Shown here: piece after piece, positions 45,906-53,849 of the stretch
Layout of the letters: the number at the start of each line of letters is the position of its first letter
Numbering within the stretch: the stretch's first letter is position 1
Origin: a virus
Taxonomy: Duplodnaviria; Caudoviricetes
DNA length: 64,000 bases
Virus record (IMG/VR): IMGVR_UViG_3300042268_000564
Direction: 5' to 3' (one strand)
Translations under genes and position numbers: made by a program
Notes under the pieces: model-generated
What the model was told of the DNA's origin: nothing
The model's database searches: none
The model's input: the letters and a program-made list of their open reading frames with translations, nothing else

Positions 45906-47275
45906 TGAGTACAAGCGGTGGTTCAAAACGACAAGGAGCAGGTGGCGGCTCAGGCAAACATAATGTTGAAAACAGAGAGCCAATTGCGCCCAGAGATGAA
46001 TGGACAAGAATCGGCAAAGAAGGTGGCGGTGGTTCAATCGCAGTTGCTTCAGCGATGGGCAACGAAGACCCTCTTTCTCAGCTCAAAAATTCAAAATATA
46101 AAAACAAAAAATTAGATAGCTTAAAAGATATAATTATCGCAAGAGATGCAAATGGTAAGCTCTTGATGTCCAACGAAGAATTTAATAAACAAGTAGCCAA
46201 GCTTGCTGTAAATAAACTCAAGAAAGCCAGAGAGATAGGGTTAATGCAGGGCGGGGTTATGCGACTCCCCAAAACAGGGAAAGCGATAGTTGTAGGCGAC
46301 TTGCATGAACAAGCAACAAATCTTACGGCGATTCTTAAACATGCGAATTTAGATAAGAACCCAAAAACAAAATTGATTTTGTTGGGTGATGTTTTGTCCG
46401 GGTCAAAAGTTGCCCGTTCTGACGAAACTGGTGGCGGCGATTCGATGCACAGAGTTATTTCATGGCTACAGGCTCGTTACCCTGACCAAGTTTTTGTTGT
46501 CAATGGGAATCATGAGATGGGCATGATGGCTGGCGTGGACAAGATGGAAGGTGGCAGCAAGGCTGCAAGTGCAATGGGACGTATGGAAGCTAGATTGTTC
46601 ACAGATAAAGAACAGGCTATAGAAAGAATAAAAGAATCACCGTTGCAGATTCAGATTGGTGATAAAGCCAAGGGGGAATATACAAGAACATTTCAACATG
46701 CCCCAGGTGCTGGCGACATTACAGAAGTTGCGAAATTGAATACCCCCGAAGATAGAAACGCAAAAGCTACGAACATATTTGAGAGCGGTGAAACTTTAAC
46801 AAAGGAAGCTTTGCAGAAGGTTAATGAAGGGAATAAGTCGGATTTAACATATTTTGGACACGTCTCGCCTGAAGCCGTCGAAAAGGGTTTACATAGTGGC
46901 GACTTGAAGCCTGAGATAAGCAAGGGTGTTGTTTCTAAGTTTGCTGGCGGCGGGATGTTTGTTGATTCGCAAAATCAGGACACAAGTGGTATTGTTGAGA
47001 TAGACCTTAATAAAGATTCAGCTCCTGAAAAGATTATTTCCATGAAGGATTTAAGGAACGAATATCAGAAATCTGCTGGCCATCTTGAAGGTTTAAGAGA
47101 ATTTGGTGGCAGCGATAAAGATACATTCAGAGGGCAGATTGCAATTAAAAATGCGGCTGAAAGAGCGGCAAAAGAAGCTGGTGAAAGGGCAAAGAAAGAA
47201 AAACCATTGACACCTGAAGAACAGGCAAAGTTGCTTGCAGACTTGATGGGCAGTGTTAAGGGTGCTGATTGGTAA
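45905..47275 (+). CDS. PPP-like Ser/Thr phosphatase / metallophosphoesterase with Gly-rich basic N-terminus
   Basis: VGDLHE, LGDVL, NGNHE, H, FGH. Confidence 0.75.
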   Translation: MSTSGGSKRQGAGGGSGKHNVENREPIAPRDEWTRIGKEGGGGSIAVASAMGNEDPLSQLKNSKYKNKKLDSLKDIIIARDANGKLLMSNEEFNKQVAKLAVNKLKKAREIGLMQGGVMRLPKTGKAIVVGDLHEQATNLTAILKHANLDKNPKTKLILLGDVLSGSKVARSDETGGGDSMHRVISWLQARYPDQVFVVNGNHEMGMMAGVDKMEGGSKAASAMGRMEARLFTDKEQAIERIKESPLQIQIGDKAKGEYTRTFQHAPGAGDITEVAKLNTPEDRNAKATNIFESGETLTKEALQKVNEGNKSDLTYFGHVSPEAVEKGLHSGDLKPEISKGVVSKFAGGGMFVDSQNQDTSGIVEIDLNKDSAPEKIISMKDLRNEYQKSAGHLEGLREFGGSDKDTFRGQIAIKNAAERAAKEAGERAKKEKPLTPEEQAKLLADLMGSVKGADW

Positions 47276-50303: not shown

Positions 50304-50999
50304 ATGACAATTATTCCAATGGTTACAGATGTCACCAGACGCACGAACGACATTTACTCTCGCCTTTTGCAAGACCGTGTTATCTTTTTGGCTGATGAGA
50401 TTACAGATGAGACGGCGAATCTTGTTGTTGCGCAATTGTTATTTCTTGCGGCAGAAGACCCGAACAAAGAAATTTCGCTTTACATAATGAGTCCGGGTGG
50501 CATGGTTACGGCAGGCATGGCAATTTATGACACGATACAGCATATTAAGCCAGATGTTTCTACCTGTTGTATCGGTGCAGCCGCCAGTATGGGTGCATTT
50601 TTGTTGGCAGCAGGAACAAAGGGTAAGAGATATGCCCTCCCTAATGTTGAAATCATGATTCATCAGGTTCTCGGTGGTGCTATGGGGCAAGAGTCTGACA
50701 TTCAGATTACAGCGCAGCAGATGGCAAAAACAAAGGCTCGTATCAACCAAATTTTGGCTAAACATACTGGACAGCCTTTGGACAAGGTGACGGCAGATTG
50801 TGATAGGGATTATTATTTGACAGCAGAAGAAGCTGTGGAATACGGTTTGATTGACAAGATTCTTTATCCTCGTGAAAAAAGTAATACAAAAAAAACAAAA
50901 ATGACTGAGGTTGAAGATAAGAATGGTAAGAAAAAGCTTTCTCAGGAGTCTCTTGAAAAGAAATATGGAAAATTTAAACCAGCAGGAAAGAAAAAGTAA
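50304..50999 (+). CDS. clpP: ATP-dependent Clp protease proteolytic subunit
   Basis: DIYSRLL.DRVIFL, AQLLFL, SPGG, AASMG (Ser), MIHQ (His), DRD (Asp), YGLID. Confidence 0.96.
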
Positions 51000-51027
51000 T
51001 TGACAATATTAACGTAGTTGTTACAAT
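51000..51027 (+). promoter_or_regulatory. sigma70-type promoter TTGACA-N16-TACAAT driving ncRNA 1
   Basis: Same 16-bp spacing; no ORF before the next terminator. Confidence 0.7.
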
Positions 51028-51040
51028 AATATTAGCAATA

Positions 51041-51113
51041 TTGAAGATTATATACAGCAAACAAATGAACGCTGAAAAACTGTCAATTTTCTTAGCGGAA
51101 AATCTATAATCTG
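51041..51113 (+). ncRNA. Candidate structured small RNA, copy 1 (TTGAAG-stem-CAGCAAAC motif)
   Basis: AGATTATA(51045-52)/TATAATCT(51105-12) closing stem, internal CGCTGA..TTAGCG hairpin, own promoter and terminator, paralog at 52086. Confidence 0.7.
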
Positions 51114-51125
51114 AGGTTGCTATTT

Positions 51126-51153
51126 AAAAAGCTGCGATTAAGCAGCTTTTTTT
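51126..51153 (+). terminator. Intrinsic terminator after ncRNA 1
   Basis: AAAAAGCTGC-gattaa-GCAGCTTTTTTT. Confidence 0.85.
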
Positions 51154-51166
51154 ATCGGAGGTAATT

Positions 51167-51550
51167 ATGTTGTTCACTTTTCACGCATTAATAGTAGTGT
51201 CGTCGCTGTTGTTTTATCATTATGGCAAATCTGGGCGGAAATTTTATCGATATGCAGGTTATGTCTCTGTATTTCTGCTTTGTTTCACTTATGGGCATCA
51301 AAACTATTATTTTACTAAAGCGTTGGAACGAGAAAAGCAGTTAGCGACGGCAACTTTGAAATATGACGAAAATTTAAGAAAGCTTACCGCCACAGTCCAT
51401 GAATATTTGCAGATGGTTAAAAGCAGTCAAAAATGGGACGATGTTGCGTCGTCTACTTCTTTGCAGGAATATACCTTTACTGTGGGTGGCGTAGACAAAG
51501 AGACCATTGTTGCAACTGAACCTTTGATTGAGGTGGGAGGAAAAAATTAA
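51167..51550 (+). CDS. Membrane protein
   Basis: Two TM segments, GGAGG RBS. Confidence 0.6.
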   Translation: MLFTFHALIVVSSLLFYHYGKSGRKFYRYAGYVSVFLLCFTYGHQNYYFTKALEREKQLATATLKYDENLRKLTATVHEYLQMVKSSQKWDDVASSTSLQEYTFTVGGVDKETIVATEPLIEVGGKN

Positions 51551-52032
51551 TGTCTAATTTTTCTGCCGCCTTTGGTGTCGCCTTTATCGTAGGTGTTTTG
51601 CATGTGATTTTTCAAGTTTTGCTTTCAGACAACAAAAAGTCTAGTTTCAGGATGTCGACTATTTTCTTGACGGTTGCCTGTGTTTCATTATGTATTATTG
51701 CGTCTGAGGCTGACAGGGAAAAGGCTATACACACCGCCAGACGAGACCAGTTTAATTCTAAAATAGCGAATATTACACAGGAAAGAGACTCTTATAAGAA
51801 GTTGTATAAGGATACTGCACTCGAATATCAAAAGGATGTTGTAGAGCAACGAAACCTTTGTGAGAAAAAACTTGCAGATATGGAAGCGGAATGTGCAAAA
51901 CAGATAGCTGAAATAAGAGAACGTGCTGTTGCCGCTGGCTTAGGAGAATGGAAAGAGGAAGTAGTTGCTACGAACAAGGTTTTTTACTTTAAGGGTGAAA
52001 AGCTTCTTGCAGAGCAGATTGAAAAAAAATAA
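51550..52032 (+). CDS. Membrane protein with coiled coil
   Basis: Two TM segments, TAATG coupling. Confidence 0.6.
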   Translation: MSNFSAAFGVAFIVGVLHVIFQVLLSDNKKSSFRMSTIFLTVACVSLCIIASEADREKAIHTARRDQFNSKIANITQERDSYKKLYKDTALEYQKDVVEQRNLCEKKLADMEAECAKQIAEIRERAVAAGLGEWKEEVVATNKVFYFKGEKLLAEQIEKK

Positions 52033-52042
52033 AAATATTTTG

Positions 52043-52070
52043 TTGACAATGTTGAGGTCAAAGTTATAAT
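52043..52070 (+). promoter_or_regulatory. sigma70-type promoter TTGACA-N16-TATAAT driving ncRNA 2 / vWA gene
   Basis: Perfect hexamers. Confidence 0.8.
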
Positions 52071-52085
52071 ACGAATATAACGATT

Positions 52086-52217
52086 TTGAAGGTTGCTTGC
52101 AGCAAACCAACAAGCAAAATACTTTTAATCTTTACCGCTAACGTAACCTGTAAATCATTAATCTCGGAGCAATCCGGCGCAATCTCGGTAGGCTGTTGCT
52201 ACCGGGTCGATTATGGT
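52086..52217 (+). ncRNA. Candidate structured RNA, copy 2, plus a downstream three-way-junction domain (leader of vWA gene)
   Basis: AGGTTGC(52090-96)/GTAACCT(52143-49) stem with CAGCAAAC; then ATCATTAATC/GATTATGGT stem enclosing CGGA-GCAA-TCCG and CGGTAG/CTACCG hairpins. Confidence 0.7.
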
Positions 52218-52218
52218 G

Positions 52219-52250
52219 AACAGGTTAGAAGAAATTCTAACCTGTTTTTT
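52219..52250 (+). terminator. Leader terminator/attenuator upstream of vWA gene
   Basis: AACAGGTTAGAA-GAAA-TTCTAACCTGTT TTTT, lies between promoter and RBS. Confidence 0.85.
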
Positions 52251-52274
52251 ATTTGGGAAAAAAGGAGGCTGAAA

Positions 52275-53849
52275 ATGCCAAGAAAAGTAAGAAAAGTTGT
52301 AACTGGTAACGATGGTACTCACTACGAAAACACTGGCAATCCACTGGTGGACTTTTTCTCTGCTGCTGGTTCCATGCTTAAAGGTGGAACGGCACCAATA
52401 TTCAGTTCAGCATTGACTGCTGACAAGCTGCGTGCAATGCAATTGCTGTTCTGGCTGCGTGATATTCGTGGCGGGGCTGGTAATCGTTCAGGCTTTAAAG
52501 ATTGTCTGAATCTGCTCGCCAAAGAAGCTACTGAATGGGCAAGAGAAAACATGGACATCATCCCTGAACTCGGCAGATGGGACGACCTGACAGCTTTCAT
52601 TGGCACACCTCTCGAAAAAGAAGCCATTGATATGTGGGCAAAAGCAATTGCCGACGGGAATGGTCTTGCTGCAAAGTGGGCACCAAGGGCAACTAACAAA
52701 GCCAAGAAGCCTGTATTTGACGCTCTCCGCAAGTCGCTGAAAATGTCACCAAAAGACTTCAGAAAAACTTTGGCGCAGAATACGAATGTTATTGAAACCG
52801 CAATGTGTAACAAGGAATTTGATAAAATCAATTACAACCATGTTCCATCTGTTGCAATGAGCCGTTACAAGAAAACATTCTCAAAGCATGACTGCACAAG
52901 ATTCGGCGAATGGATTAACGAAGTCAAGGAAGCTGTCGCAACTGGCAAAAAGGGCAAAGGTGTTGCAAAAATGAACACAAAAGCTTTGTTTCCTCATGAC
53001 ATCGTGAGACAGGTTATGGATGAGCTTGGTGGTCGAGTTAGTTGCTACGGCGGTGGCAGATATGATACTAAGTTCAAGTCAGAATTTGCTGATACTGCAT
53101 TTGCTTCTTTGCCAGATTATATCGGCGACAAAGACCAGAAGATTCTTTGCATCGTAGATTGTAGCGGCTCAATGACAAGTGTTACGAGTGGTTCTGTGTC
53201 CATGATGGATATTGCTCATGGCTTGGGTATGTATTGTTCTGCAAGAATTGCGGAAGATAACCCTTTCCACAAGCTTATTGTGCCATTCTCAAGGACTGCC
53301 AGATTCTTTTCATGGAAAAATCTGCCGTTCAGTAATGCTCTATTCAAGCTGCGTGTCACTGAGAGTGAAGTTGCGTCAACTGACATGTCTGCGACTTTGA
53401 GCCTGATTCTTGACACTGCGAAGCAGTATAAGCTTAAGGCTGAAGATATGCCAACGACTTTAATGATTCTTTCCGACATGCAGTTCAATGGTGCAGTTCA
53501 TTCTGGTGATGATACTGTTTTTGAAAGATTCAAGAAAGAATTCAAGGCTGCTGGTTATAAATTTCCAAAAGTAATTTTTTGGAATCTCAATTCTGGCATG
53601 GGCAACGGCAAACCAACTACAGCTACAGCAAAGAATATGGTGCTTATCAGTGGTTTCTCAGCGAATATTCTTACCTCTGCTCTTAAGGGTGGTGGAATTA
53701 CACCTGAGTCTATCATGATGGACACTATTGGTAAGTATGAAAACTTGGTTAAAATTCCTGCCTCTGAACAGGCTCCTGTAAAAAAGGTAAAGCGGGTAAC
53801 TAAAACTACCGCAACAACTGCCAAAGCAAAAACTACGACCAAAGCGTAA
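52275..53849 (+). CDS. TROVE/Ro60-like helical + vWA protein (DUF2828-like)
   Basis: LFWLRDIRGGAG.R, ELGRWDDL, LAAKWAPR, INYNHVPSVAM, MIDAS DCSGSM, ILSDMQF, FWNL, ISGFS; AGGAGG RBS before ATG 52275. Confidence 0.8.
   Translation: MPRKVRKVVTGNDGTHYENTGNPLVDFFSAAGSMLKGGTAPIFSSALTADKLRAMQLLFWLRDIRGGAGNRSGFKDCLNLLAKEATEWARENMDIIPELGRWDDLTAFIGTPLEKEAIDMWAKAIADGNGLAAKWAPRATNKAKKPVFDALRKSLKMSPKDFRKTLAQNTNVIETAMCNKEFDKINYNHVPSVAMSRYKKTFSKHDCTRFGEWINEVKEAVATGKKGKGVAKMNTKALFPHDIVRQVMDELGGRVSCYGGGRYDTKFKSEFADTAFASLPDYIGDKDQKILCIVDCSGSMTSVTSGSVSMMDIAHGLGMYCSARIAEDNPFHKLIVPFSRTARFFSWKNLPFSNALFKLRVTESEVASTDMSATLSLILDTAKQYKLKAEDMPTTLMILSDMQFNGAVHSGDDTVFERFKKEFKAAGYKFPKVIFWNLNSGMGNGKPTTATAKNMVLISGFSANILTSALKGGGITPESIMMDTIGKYENLVKIPASEQAPVKKVKRVTKTTATTAKAKTTTKA

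What the first reader, a model, noticed from the sequence alone, without database searches (positions are those of the whole stretch)
52086..52275. Leader of the vWA gene looks like a terminator/antiterminator switch, possibly autoregulatory
Seen: a strong terminator (52219-52250) lies between the promoter (52043) and the RBS/ATG (52275). The 3' strand of the conserved RNA stem, TAACCTGT (52144-52151), is perfectly complementary to the terminator 5' arm ACAGGTTA (52220-52227), so the two structures are mutually exclusive; the intervening sequence folds into a compact three-way junction that would bring them together. Inference: when the motif stem is stabilised (for example by the vWA protein) the terminator forms and a short RNA is released; when unbound, read-through makes more protein. 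The stand-alone copy 1 could titrate the protein.
Basis: partly seen in the sequence, partly recalled or inferred. Interest (0 to 1): 0.78.

Follow-up and report, generated by a model that had tools for sequence, protein, structure and literature searches.

The report
Y-like RNA leader with attenuator
In a giant phage, the gene for a Ro60-shaped RNA-binding protein sits behind one of its probable partner RNAs and a strong transcription stop signal, and that RNA can pair with the stop signal to disable it, so the phage may match protein output to RNA supply; this has not been tested at the bench.

Summary
The 'vWA gene' (52275-53849) carries DUF2828 and DUF7788, and its model matches Ro60 structures over its full length. 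The 'conserved RNA stem' belongs to a handle RNA: a 7-bp closing stem, 3 nt, then CAGCAA. This scan has already noted that family beside DUF2828 genes in about 88 other genomes and elsewhere in this phage.

New here:
- In most of 104 related loci the last handle RNA ends 11-36 nt before the start codon, with no terminator.
- Only the window's closest relatives place an intrinsic terminator in between.
- In nine of these leaders, from two protein clades, the handle's 3' strand pairs with the terminator's 5' arm about as well as with its own partner. This exceeds what other terminators or neighbouring handle stems give.
- Seven other terminator-bearing relatives, and both upstream copies (window RNA 1 and L002 RNA-A), lack this pairing.
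- Folding the nascent window RNA gives the antiterminator at P 0.999 before the terminator's 3' arm exists. The terminator then wins by about 3 kcal/mol.

A three-helix attenuator is therefore supported. That the protein is the regulator is inference. I rate it a new variant of a known kind, of moderate interest.

The parts
52043..52070 (+). Sigma-70 consensus promoter of RNA 2 (TTGACA-16-TATAAT). The start site near 52077 is inferred.
   Evidence: 12 of 12 matches. The closest relative, L002, has the same promoter layout.
52082..52156 (+). Handle RNA (RNA 2). Lower helix 52082-86 with 52152-56. Closing stem S1 52090-96 with S2 52143-49. 3-nt gap 52097-99. CAGCAA at 52100-05. Conserved tail GT at 52150-51.
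   Evidence: My handle finder, nhmmer hits to other copies, constrained folds, and a compensatory change against L002.
52086..52127 (+). Predicted local hairpin that sequesters S1 in naked RNA. It competes with the handle.
   Evidence: P(handle) is only 0.19 in the full-length ensemble.
52154..52217 (+). Spacer domain, predicted as a three-way junction and closed by the antiterminator helix.
   Evidence: z = -1.56. The sequence is not conserved; relatives have a different spacer of 18-68 nt, mostly one hairpin.
52144..52227 (+). Antiterminator: 52144-52151 (S2 plus GT) paired with 52220-52227 (S3). 8 bp, mutually exclusive with both the handle and the terminator.
   Evidence: Sequence. It is the MFE of prefixes ending at 52227-52240. 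P = 0.999 in the prefix ending at 52234. Null sets.
52218..52252 (+). Intrinsic terminator: 13-bp stem, GAAA loop and T run. Its stem reads like a handle stem (AGGTTAG / CTAACCT, then GT).
   Evidence: hairpin -16.8 kcal/mol; P = 0.998 in the full-length ensemble.
52262..52277 (+). Shine-Dalgarno sequence (AAGGAGG) and ATG of the Ro60-like gene.
52275..53849 (+). 524-aa DUF2828 + DUF7788 protein with a Ro60-like fold (HEAT-repeat ring plus vWA domain).
   Evidence: Pfam. AlphaFold2 model pLDDT 81.9. The top 13 PDB matches are all Ro60, Rsr or phage phiLo Ro60, TM 0.46-0.58.
51000..51154 (+). RNA 1: promoter 51000-27; handle S1 51045-51, CAGCAA 51055-60, S2 51106-12; own terminator about 51126-51154, which is not complementary to its handle.
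   Evidence: duplex -0.1 kcal/mol; 242 of 249 null arms do as well.

Best explanation
The 'leader' is a small-RNA gene. Transcription from the consensus promoter at 52043 makes a handle RNA, which is the Y-RNA-like probable partner of the Ro60-shaped protein encoded downstream. That transcript mostly ends at the terminator at 52218-52252 and so yields an RNA of about 175 nt. The protein gene has no promoter of its own, so it is expressed only by read-through.

Read-through is set by a three-helix attenuator:
1. S1:S2, the handle, acts as the anti-antiterminator.
2. S2 plus GT pairs with S3 to form the antiterminator, which closes the spacer domain.
3. S3:S4 is the terminator.

In naked nascent RNA, a local hairpin holds S1, so S2 pairs with S3 as soon as S3 emerges and the polymerase can run on. 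If the handle is locked, most plausibly by the Ro60-like protein binding it, S3 stays free, the terminator forms, and only the short RNA is made. This is negative feedback that keeps protein in step with its RNA, and it follows PyrR-type logic.

What is shown and what is inferred:
- Shown: the anatomy, the obligatory read-through, the mutual exclusivity and the conservation of the S2:S3 match within one group of leaders.
- Inferred: that termination is actually modulated, and that the protein is the modulator.
For: - Anatomy, and no internal promoter.
- The protein has a Ro60 fold.
- Handle RNAs lie upstream of DUF2828 genes and in the same orientation. My finder gave 257 hits on the gene strand, 62 on the opposite strand and 31 in shuffled sequence. 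In 92 of 104 non-redundant loci a handle is found upstream, and in 58 of these the last one ends no more than 40 nt before the ATG, so co-transcription is the family rule.
- Terminator-bearing leaders are confined to the window's nearest relatives.
- Nascent-chain folding. In all six type-i leaders folded, 7-10 nt of S2(+GT) pair with the terminator's 5' arm and no handle base pair forms. All seven type-ii leaders show no such pairing and keep 4-7 of the 7 handle base pairs.
- Window ensemble. Before S4 exists, P(antiterminator) is 0.999. At full length, P(terminator) is 0.998, and the forced antiterminator is only 3.2 kcal/mol worse.
- Null 1, the 5' arms of 249 predicted terminators of the own genome. 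Eight of nine type-i leaders have at most 1 of 249 as good (L280: 7). The upstream copies, window RNA 1 and L002 RNA-A, have 242 and 54 of 249 as good.
- Null 2, the idea that the terminator is just another handle stem. S2 against the next handle's 5' strand has a median of -4.4 and a 5th percentile of -8.7 kcal/mol (115 pairs). Type-i S2:S3 duplexes are -8.5 to -16.1, as good as cognate S1:S2 (median -10.0).
- The base just before S3 is C or T in 9 of 9 leaders. It pairs with the G of the S2 tail, although it is unpaired within the terminator in 6 of 9. S1 has A at that position (sequences).
- Between WIN and L002, stem position 4 changes in all four segments (S1, S2, S3, S4). Between L092 and L282, position 6 changes in S1, S2 and S3, while S4 keeps a T that pairs with either S3 base.
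Against: - There are no expression data.
- Seven related leaders (type ii) have strong terminators with no complementarity to the handle. Most of the family has no terminator at all.
- Among the 13 terminator-bearing leaders, cognate pairs are not clearly better than non-cognate pairs (permutation p = 0.056). This is because type-i handles resemble one another.
- Five of the nine antiterminators carry an internal A.C mismatch that one substitution could remove.
- At equilibrium the terminator wins everywhere: by 4.4 kcal/mol in the window, and by 10-16 kcal/mol in L002 and L092.
- The nine leaders represent roughly five or six independent lineages.
- Binding of the protein to the handle has not been tested for any member of this family.
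Confidence: 0.42

Rival explanations
1. Constitutive leaky terminator. RNA 2 is an ordinary small-RNA gene with a strong terminator, and a fixed small fraction of read-through supplies the protein mRNA, so RNA greatly outnumbers protein. The S2:S3 match would be a historical by-product, because the terminator arose from or copies a handle stem, and it would have no regulatory role.
For: - The window terminator stem (AGGTTAG / CTAACCT, then GTT) is identical to real handle stems of relatives L102, L103 and L114.
- Type-ii relatives manage with terminators that have no antiterminator.
- The terminator is favoured at equilibrium in every leader.
- The cognate versus non-cognate permutation test is not significant.
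Against: - Neighbouring handle stems in arrays are not mutually complementary (median -4.4 kcal/mol), so simple handle-likeness does not predict duplexes of -8.5 to -16.
- The terminators have optimised tetraloops and no trace of CAGCAA.
- The C or T before S3 pairs with the S2 tail but is unpaired in the terminator in 6 of 9 leaders.
- The match is kept in two separate protein clades.
Confidence: 0.3
2. Protein operator next to the ribosome-binding site. The Ro60-like protein binds the handle-like terminator hairpin, which occupies the place of the last handle in other phages, and represses translation or alters mRNA stability. Alternative RNA pairing would be irrelevant.
For: - In at least 58 of 92 leaders the last handle ends within 40 nt of the ATG (11-36 nt in the loci listed), directly abutting the SD.
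- In the window, L002 and L003 the handle-like terminator hairpin occupies that position.
- In Vibrio phage KVP40 a handle-like element (GACATT / AATGTC plus CAGCAA) encloses the SD and AUG of the DUF2828 homologue.
Against: - The terminator hairpins lack the CAGCAA motif that defines handles.
- The KVP40 stem is weak (z = 0.08).
- This reading does not explain why S3 matches its own neighbour's S2 in particular.
Confidence: 0.12
3. Processing signal only. The whole unit is transcribed as one precursor, nucleases excise RNA 2, and the hairpin with its T run mainly protects a 3' end rather than stopping the polymerase.
For: - Other copies of the RNA lie inside tRNA arrays, where they must be cut out of precursors.
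- Abundant phage ncRNAs upstream of the Rsr-like gene of Listeria phage CKA15 were reported without canonical terminators (PMC12282133).
Against: A 13-bp GC-containing stem followed by six T's is a textbook intrinsic terminator for a host-type polymerase, and the unit starts at a perfect sigma-70 promoter.
Confidence: 0.08

Closest known systems
Ro60/Rsr with Y RNAs: bacterial and mycobacteriophage YrlA (Chen et al. 2014, PMC4201824) and Thermus phage phiLo Ro60 with Yrl1/Yrl2 upstream of the gene (PMC12135203)
   Same: - A ring-shaped HEAT-repeat plus vWA protein (fold match).
- Small RNAs closed by a 5'/3' stem with an internal loop.
- RNA genes next to the protein gene, upstream and in the same orientation as in phiLo.
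- Other copies in this phage are tRNA-like or sit in tRNA arrays.
   Different: - There is no sequence-level match to TROVE; Pfam gives DUF2828 + DUF7788, and a PDB profile search finds no Ro60.
- There is no Rfam Y_RNA or YrlA hit.
- The signature is a 7-bp stem, 3 nt and CAGCAA, not the CGAA-type bulged helix.
- I found no report of cis autoregulation or attenuation by a Y RNA.
PyrR- and TRAP-type protein-dependent transcription attenuation in Bacillus (from established knowledge)
   Same: A promoter, then a leader holding an anti-antiterminator, an antiterminator and an intrinsic terminator ahead of the ORF. Protein binding to the 5' stem-loop would favour termination.
   Different: - Here the sensor helix is a free-standing RNP partner RNA, and the terminated product is itself the functional small RNA.
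- The proposed ligand is the product of the regulated gene.
- Nothing has been tested.
Class I RNAs of dictyostelid amoebae (Rfam RF01414; Kjellin et al. 2021, PMC7919456)
   Same: A short stem joins the 5' and 3' ends, a conserved motif containing ACAGCAA lies next to the 5' strand, and the RNAs start AAG and end CUGU. RNA 2 reads GAAGG...ACCTGT.
   Different: The Rfam scores are 18.5 and 21.9 bits against a gathering score of 41.5. The hosts are eukaryotic, and the only known binding protein there is an RRM protein.
Abundant early ncRNAs upstream of CKA15_055 in Listeria phage CKA15 (PMC12282133)
   Same: A phage gene whose best HHpred match is Rsr lies downstream of highly transcribed ncRNA regions in the same direction. 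Strong sigma-A-type consensus promoters drive two of those unannotated regions.
   Different: The authors saw no canonical terminators at the RNA 3' ends. I did not verify that CKA15_055 is a DUF2828 protein; Listeria phages account for 54 of the 695 records.

Membership tests
Handle-RNA family linked to DUF2828 (not in Rfam; noted repeatedly by this scan) | A 7-bp closing stem, a 3-nt gap and then CNGCAA next to the 5' strand | tested here: met
   S1 52090-96 with S2 52143-49, gap 52097-99, CAGCAA 52100-05.
Handle-RNA family linked to DUF2828 (not in Rfam; noted repeatedly by this scan) | The 3' strand ends ...YCT and is followed by G(T); the 5' strand starts AG | tested here: met
   AGGTTGC and GTAACCT followed by GT. 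The same pattern appears in nearly all gene-strand hits.
Handle-RNA family linked to DUF2828 (not in Rfam; noted repeatedly by this scan) | Lies upstream of a DUF2828 gene in the same orientation, and has further copies elsewhere (tRNA arrays) | tested here: met
Rfam RF01414 Dicty_Class_I_RNA | Score at or above the gathering threshold (41.5 bits) | tested here: not met
   18.5 bits for 52091-52150 and 21.9 bits for 51046-51113.
Rfam Y_RNA / YrlA | Match to the covariance model | tested here: not met
   No hit at the gathering threshold or at E <= 10.
Ro60 / TROVE proteins | Sequence match to the TROVE domain, or to solved Ro60 chains | tested here: not met
   Pfam gives DUF2828 + DUF7788 only. 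A profile search against PDB sequences finds no Ro60.
Ro60 / TROVE proteins | Ring of HEAT-like repeats closed by a vWA domain | tested here: met
   AF2 model with pLDDT 81.9 and pTM 0.82. The top 13 Foldseek PDB hits are all Ro60, Rsr or phiLo Ro60, full length, TM 0.46-0.58, E 9e-9 to 2e-5.
Protein-dependent transcription attenuators (PyrR/TRAP type) | An intrinsic terminator between the promoter and the ORF, with no promoter after it | tested here: met
   only 24 nt lie between the T run and the ATG.
Protein-dependent transcription attenuators (PyrR/TRAP type) | An antiterminator that excludes the terminator and is itself excluded by an upstream helix | tested here: met
   (nearest-neighbour predictions only).
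Protein-dependent transcription attenuators (PyrR/TRAP type) | The alternative pairing is conserved in homologous leaders | tested here: inconclusive
   Kept in 9 type-i leaders and well beyond two null sets. Absent in 7 type-ii leaders. Permutation among the 13 leaders gives p = 0.056.
Protein-dependent transcription attenuators (PyrR/TRAP type) | A regulator binds the anti-antiterminator and changes read-through | not testable with these tools
   Needs binding and transcription assays.

The most novel reading that the evidence does not exclude
A Ro60-like ribonucleoprotein measures its own RNA-to-protein ratio. Its Y-like partner RNA, still attached to the nascent transcript, is the sensor of a three-helix attenuator. 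Free protein locks the handle and stops transcription before its own gene. The same logic may operate at the level of translation in the many phages where the handle abuts the ribosome-binding site.
Probability: 0.33. Interest if true: 0.75.

Novelty: new variant of a known kind. Interest (0 to 1): 0.55.

Why it matters
Ro60 and its Y RNAs are conserved from bacteria to humans, yet how cells or viruses balance the protein against its RNAs is not known. I found no report of cis autoregulation.

A phage leader in which the partner RNA doubles as the sensing arm of an attenuator would give a simple, testable answer. It would also provide the first functional handle on a very widespread phage protein family that has not been characterised: 695 phage records carry homologues.

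The comparative result has practical use too. Handle RNAs almost always sit in the 5' leader of the protein gene, which tells experimenters which RNA to test for binding and where to look for regulation.

Tried and rejected
- Public sequencing runs.
- IMG/VR scan with a terminator-derived pattern (GGCTGGTT...AGCCTNTTT). It returned 115 stretches, none with a handle upstream or a DUF2828-like ORF downstream. The pattern was too unspecific and one scan was wasted.
- Close-relative search in IMG/VR with the single protein. It found nothing; an alignment was needed.
- PDB profile search by sequence. No Ro60 hit; only the fold comparison shows the relationship.
- Rfam. No family reached threshold.
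- Cognate versus non-cognate permutation among 13 leaders. p = 0.056 for the 5' arm and 0.43 for the 3' arm. I first read this as 'generic handle-likeness only', then revised that view after the broader control.
- Nested conformer (S1:S4 around S2:S3). At -38.8 kcal/mol it is clearly worse than either alternative, so I rejected it.
- An apparent match between the post-handle tail GTTCYGA and the apical part of type-ii terminators. In the folds the tail instead pairs with the 5' flank and extends the handle, so I did not pursue it.
- The match at 47230 (an 11-nt word) lies inside a coding region and is not a copy of the RNA.
- A formal count of structure pairs on the S2/S3/S4 columns was not made. 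Spacer lengths differ too much for MAFFT, and I could not type a manual alignment.
Full report
**What is there.** The window is part of a 393,839-bp IMG/VR phage record.
- A perfect sigma-70 promoter lies at 52043-52070, and a 13-bp terminator hairpin with a T run lies at 52218-52252.
- The SD and the ATG at 52275 open a 524-aa ORF.
- TAACCTGT (52144-51) is the exact complement of ACAGGTTA (52220-27).
- No other promoter-like site lies between 52071 and 52716 on this strand, so the ORF can be expressed only by reading through the terminator.

**The protein.** Pfam finds DUF2828 and DUF7788. Sequence searches against solved structures do not reach Ro60. An AlphaFold2 model (pLDDT 81.9) does: its 13 best PDB matches are Ro60, D. 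radiodurans Rsr and the Thermus phage phiLo Ro60, all over the full length, with TM 0.46-0.58. Homologues occur in 695 phage records, all below 60% identity.

**The RNA.** The 'conserved stem' is a 7-bp helix, 52090-96 with 52143-49. It is followed on the 5' side by 3 nt and CAGCAA, and on the 3' side by GT.
- A second copy lies at 51045-51112 behind its own promoter.
- Three more copies lie in the phage's tRNA arrays, and tRNA-shaped genes carry the same motif.
- Rfam has no family for it. The only weak resemblance is to Dictyostelium Class I RNAs, which also start AAG, end CUGU and carry the motif beside the 5' stem strand.
- Earlier notes of this scan describe the same 'handle' RNA beside DUF2828 genes in about 88 genomes and elsewhere in this genome. 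I re-derived the association independently, as described next.

**Family context.** I fetched 160 related loci and six contigs of close homologues.
- A simple finder (stem, 3 nt, CNGCAA) gives 257 hits on the gene strand, 62 on the other strand and 31 in shuffled sequence.
- Of 104 non-redundant loci, 92 have a handle upstream of the gene. In 58 of these the last handle ends no more than 40 nt from the ATG, typically 11-36 nt, so its 3' strand abuts the SD.
- Several of the remaining loci have variant handles that my filter missed.
- Co-transcription of the RNA and the protein gene is therefore the rule, and a terminator between them is the exception.

**The exception.** Terminators between the last handle and the SD occur only among the window's nearest relatives (41-55% protein identity). 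They fall into two kinds.
- Type i comprises the window, L002, L003, L280, L089, L281, L092, L282 and L093. These have a spacer of 18-68 nt and a terminator whose 5' arm reads AC/AT-(A/G)GGCTGG (ACAGGTTAG in the window).
- Type ii comprises L091, L095, L101, L102, L103, L111 and L114. These have unrelated terminators, and the sequence after the handle pairs with the 5' flank to lengthen the handle stem.
- On a protein tree, window + L002 form one clade (support 100). The other seven type-i leaders sit in a separate clade (99), and six of the seven type-ii leaders form a third (99).

**Is the complementarity meaningful?** I applied five tests.
1. Other terminators as a null. Against the 5' arms of 157 to 249 predicted terminators of the same genome, the window's own arm is the best partner of its handle 3' strand. 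Eight of nine type-i leaders have at most 1 of 249 null arms as good (L280: 7). The two upstream copies have 242 and 54 of 249 as good.
2. Handle-likeness as a null. If the terminator were merely handle-like, it should pair with the neighbouring handle about as well as successive handles in arrays pair with each other. That control gives a median of -4.4 and a 5th percentile of -8.7 kcal/mol (115 pairs). Type-i values are -8.5 to -16.1, equal to cognate stem pairing, which has a median of -10.0.
3. A diagnostic base. The base before S3 is C or T in all nine leaders and pairs with the G of the handle tail. It is unpaired in the terminator in six of the nine, and the handle's own 5' strand has A at that position.
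4. Nascent-chain folding. In all six type-i leaders folded, the terminator's 5' arm pairs with S2 and no handle base pair forms. In the seven type-ii leaders this pairing is absent and 4-7 of the 7 handle base pairs remain.
5. Window ensemble. The antiterminator has P = 0.999 before the 3' arm exists. Afterwards the terminator has P = 0.998, with a gap of only 3.2 kcal/mol. The handle itself has P = 0.19 because a local hairpin (52086-52127) competes for its 5' strand.

**Caveats.**
- The cognate versus non-cognate permutation among the 13 terminator-bearing leaders is not significant (p = 0.056), because type-i handles resemble one another.
- Five antiterminators carry an A.C mismatch.
- In L002 and L092 the terminator is favoured by 10-16 kcal/mol.
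- The three-way junction is not conserved and is not more stable than shuffles.
- The nine leaders amount to perhaps five or six independent lineages.
- No transcript data could be obtained, and binding of the protein to the handle has never been tested.

**Most likely mechanism.** RNA 2 is a Y-like small-RNA gene whose terminator also gates the Ro60-like gene. The three helices form an attenuator. A locked handle, most plausibly protein-bound, leaves the terminator free to form. An unlocked handle lets S2 capture the terminator's 5' arm and allows read-through. This is PyrR-type logic, with the gene's own product as the proposed ligand and the terminated product as the functional RNA.
- I put 0.42 on this regulated version.
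- I put 0.30 on a constitutive leaky terminator.
- I put less on a translational operator or a processing role.
- A hint that autoregulation through leader handles is general comes from two observations: the SD-abutting arrangement in most phages, and Vibrio phage KVP40, where a weak handle-like stem encloses the SD and AUG.

**Literature.**
- Y-like RNAs upstream of a phage Ro60 gene are known for Thermus phage phiLo (PMC12135203).
- Abundant early ncRNAs upstream of an Rsr-like gene are reported for Listeria phage CKA15 (PMC12282133).
- I found nothing on DUF2828 with RNAs, and nothing on Ro60 autoregulation by attenuation.

**Verdict.** This is a new variant of a known kind of control, attached to an RNA-protein pairing that this scan has already found many times.

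Noticed in passing
window 51000-52032: RNA 1 is not free-standing. Its terminator (about 51126-51154) is followed at once by an SD and two ORFs (51167-51550 and 51550-52032; no Pfam family above threshold). These ORFs have no promoter of their own, so they too depend on terminator read-through, this time without any handle complementarity.
   Followed up: partly
L083 5680-5798(-), 4680-4800(-) and 5885-5990(-) (G000 about 122.7-124.0 kb): tRNA-shaped genes whose anticodon region is replaced by a permuted handle (ARCCTGAYAAAGGTT..CAGCAAC). One of them scores as a 119-nt tRNA in Rfam. Earlier notes of this scan already cover them.
   Followed up: partly
L083 6057-6329(-): A group I intron (Rfam RF00028, 81.9 bits) lies in the phage's tRNA region.
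   Followed up: no
L286 622-665 (Vibrio phage KVP40, upstream of KVP40.0300): A handle-like element (GACATT, 3 nt, CAGCAA ... AATGTC) whose loop holds the SD and whose 3' strand holds the start codon of the DUF2828 homologue. The predicted fold is weak (-3.5 kcal/mol, z = 0.08).
   Followed up: partly
L285 310-640 (Vibrio phage BUCT194): Upstream of this cultured phage's DUF2828 gene lie tRNA-shaped RNAs carrying the handle motif, and a last handle that ends about 30 nt before the ATG.
   Followed up: no
window 49296, 52043, 54684, 55177: Four perfect 12-of-12 sigma-70 consensus promoters lie within 6 kb, all on the + strand (28 promoter-like sites against 18 expected). This looks like a block of strong early transcription units.
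   Followed up: no
window 52091-52097 and 52168-52174: The handle's 5' strand GGTTGCT is also fully complementary to AGCAATC inside the spacer domain. This is another possible competitor pairing.
   Followed up: no
L096-L098 upstream regions: In three relatives within the type-i protein clade, a small ORF lies directly upstream of the DUF2828 gene. In L096 the preceding leader still shows CCTGT, a spacer and then ACAGG plus a terminator; L097 and L098 were seen only as coding sequence.
   Followed up: no
window 50304-50999: A ClpP protease gene (Pfam E = 2.5e-79) lies directly upstream of RNA 1.
   Followed up: no
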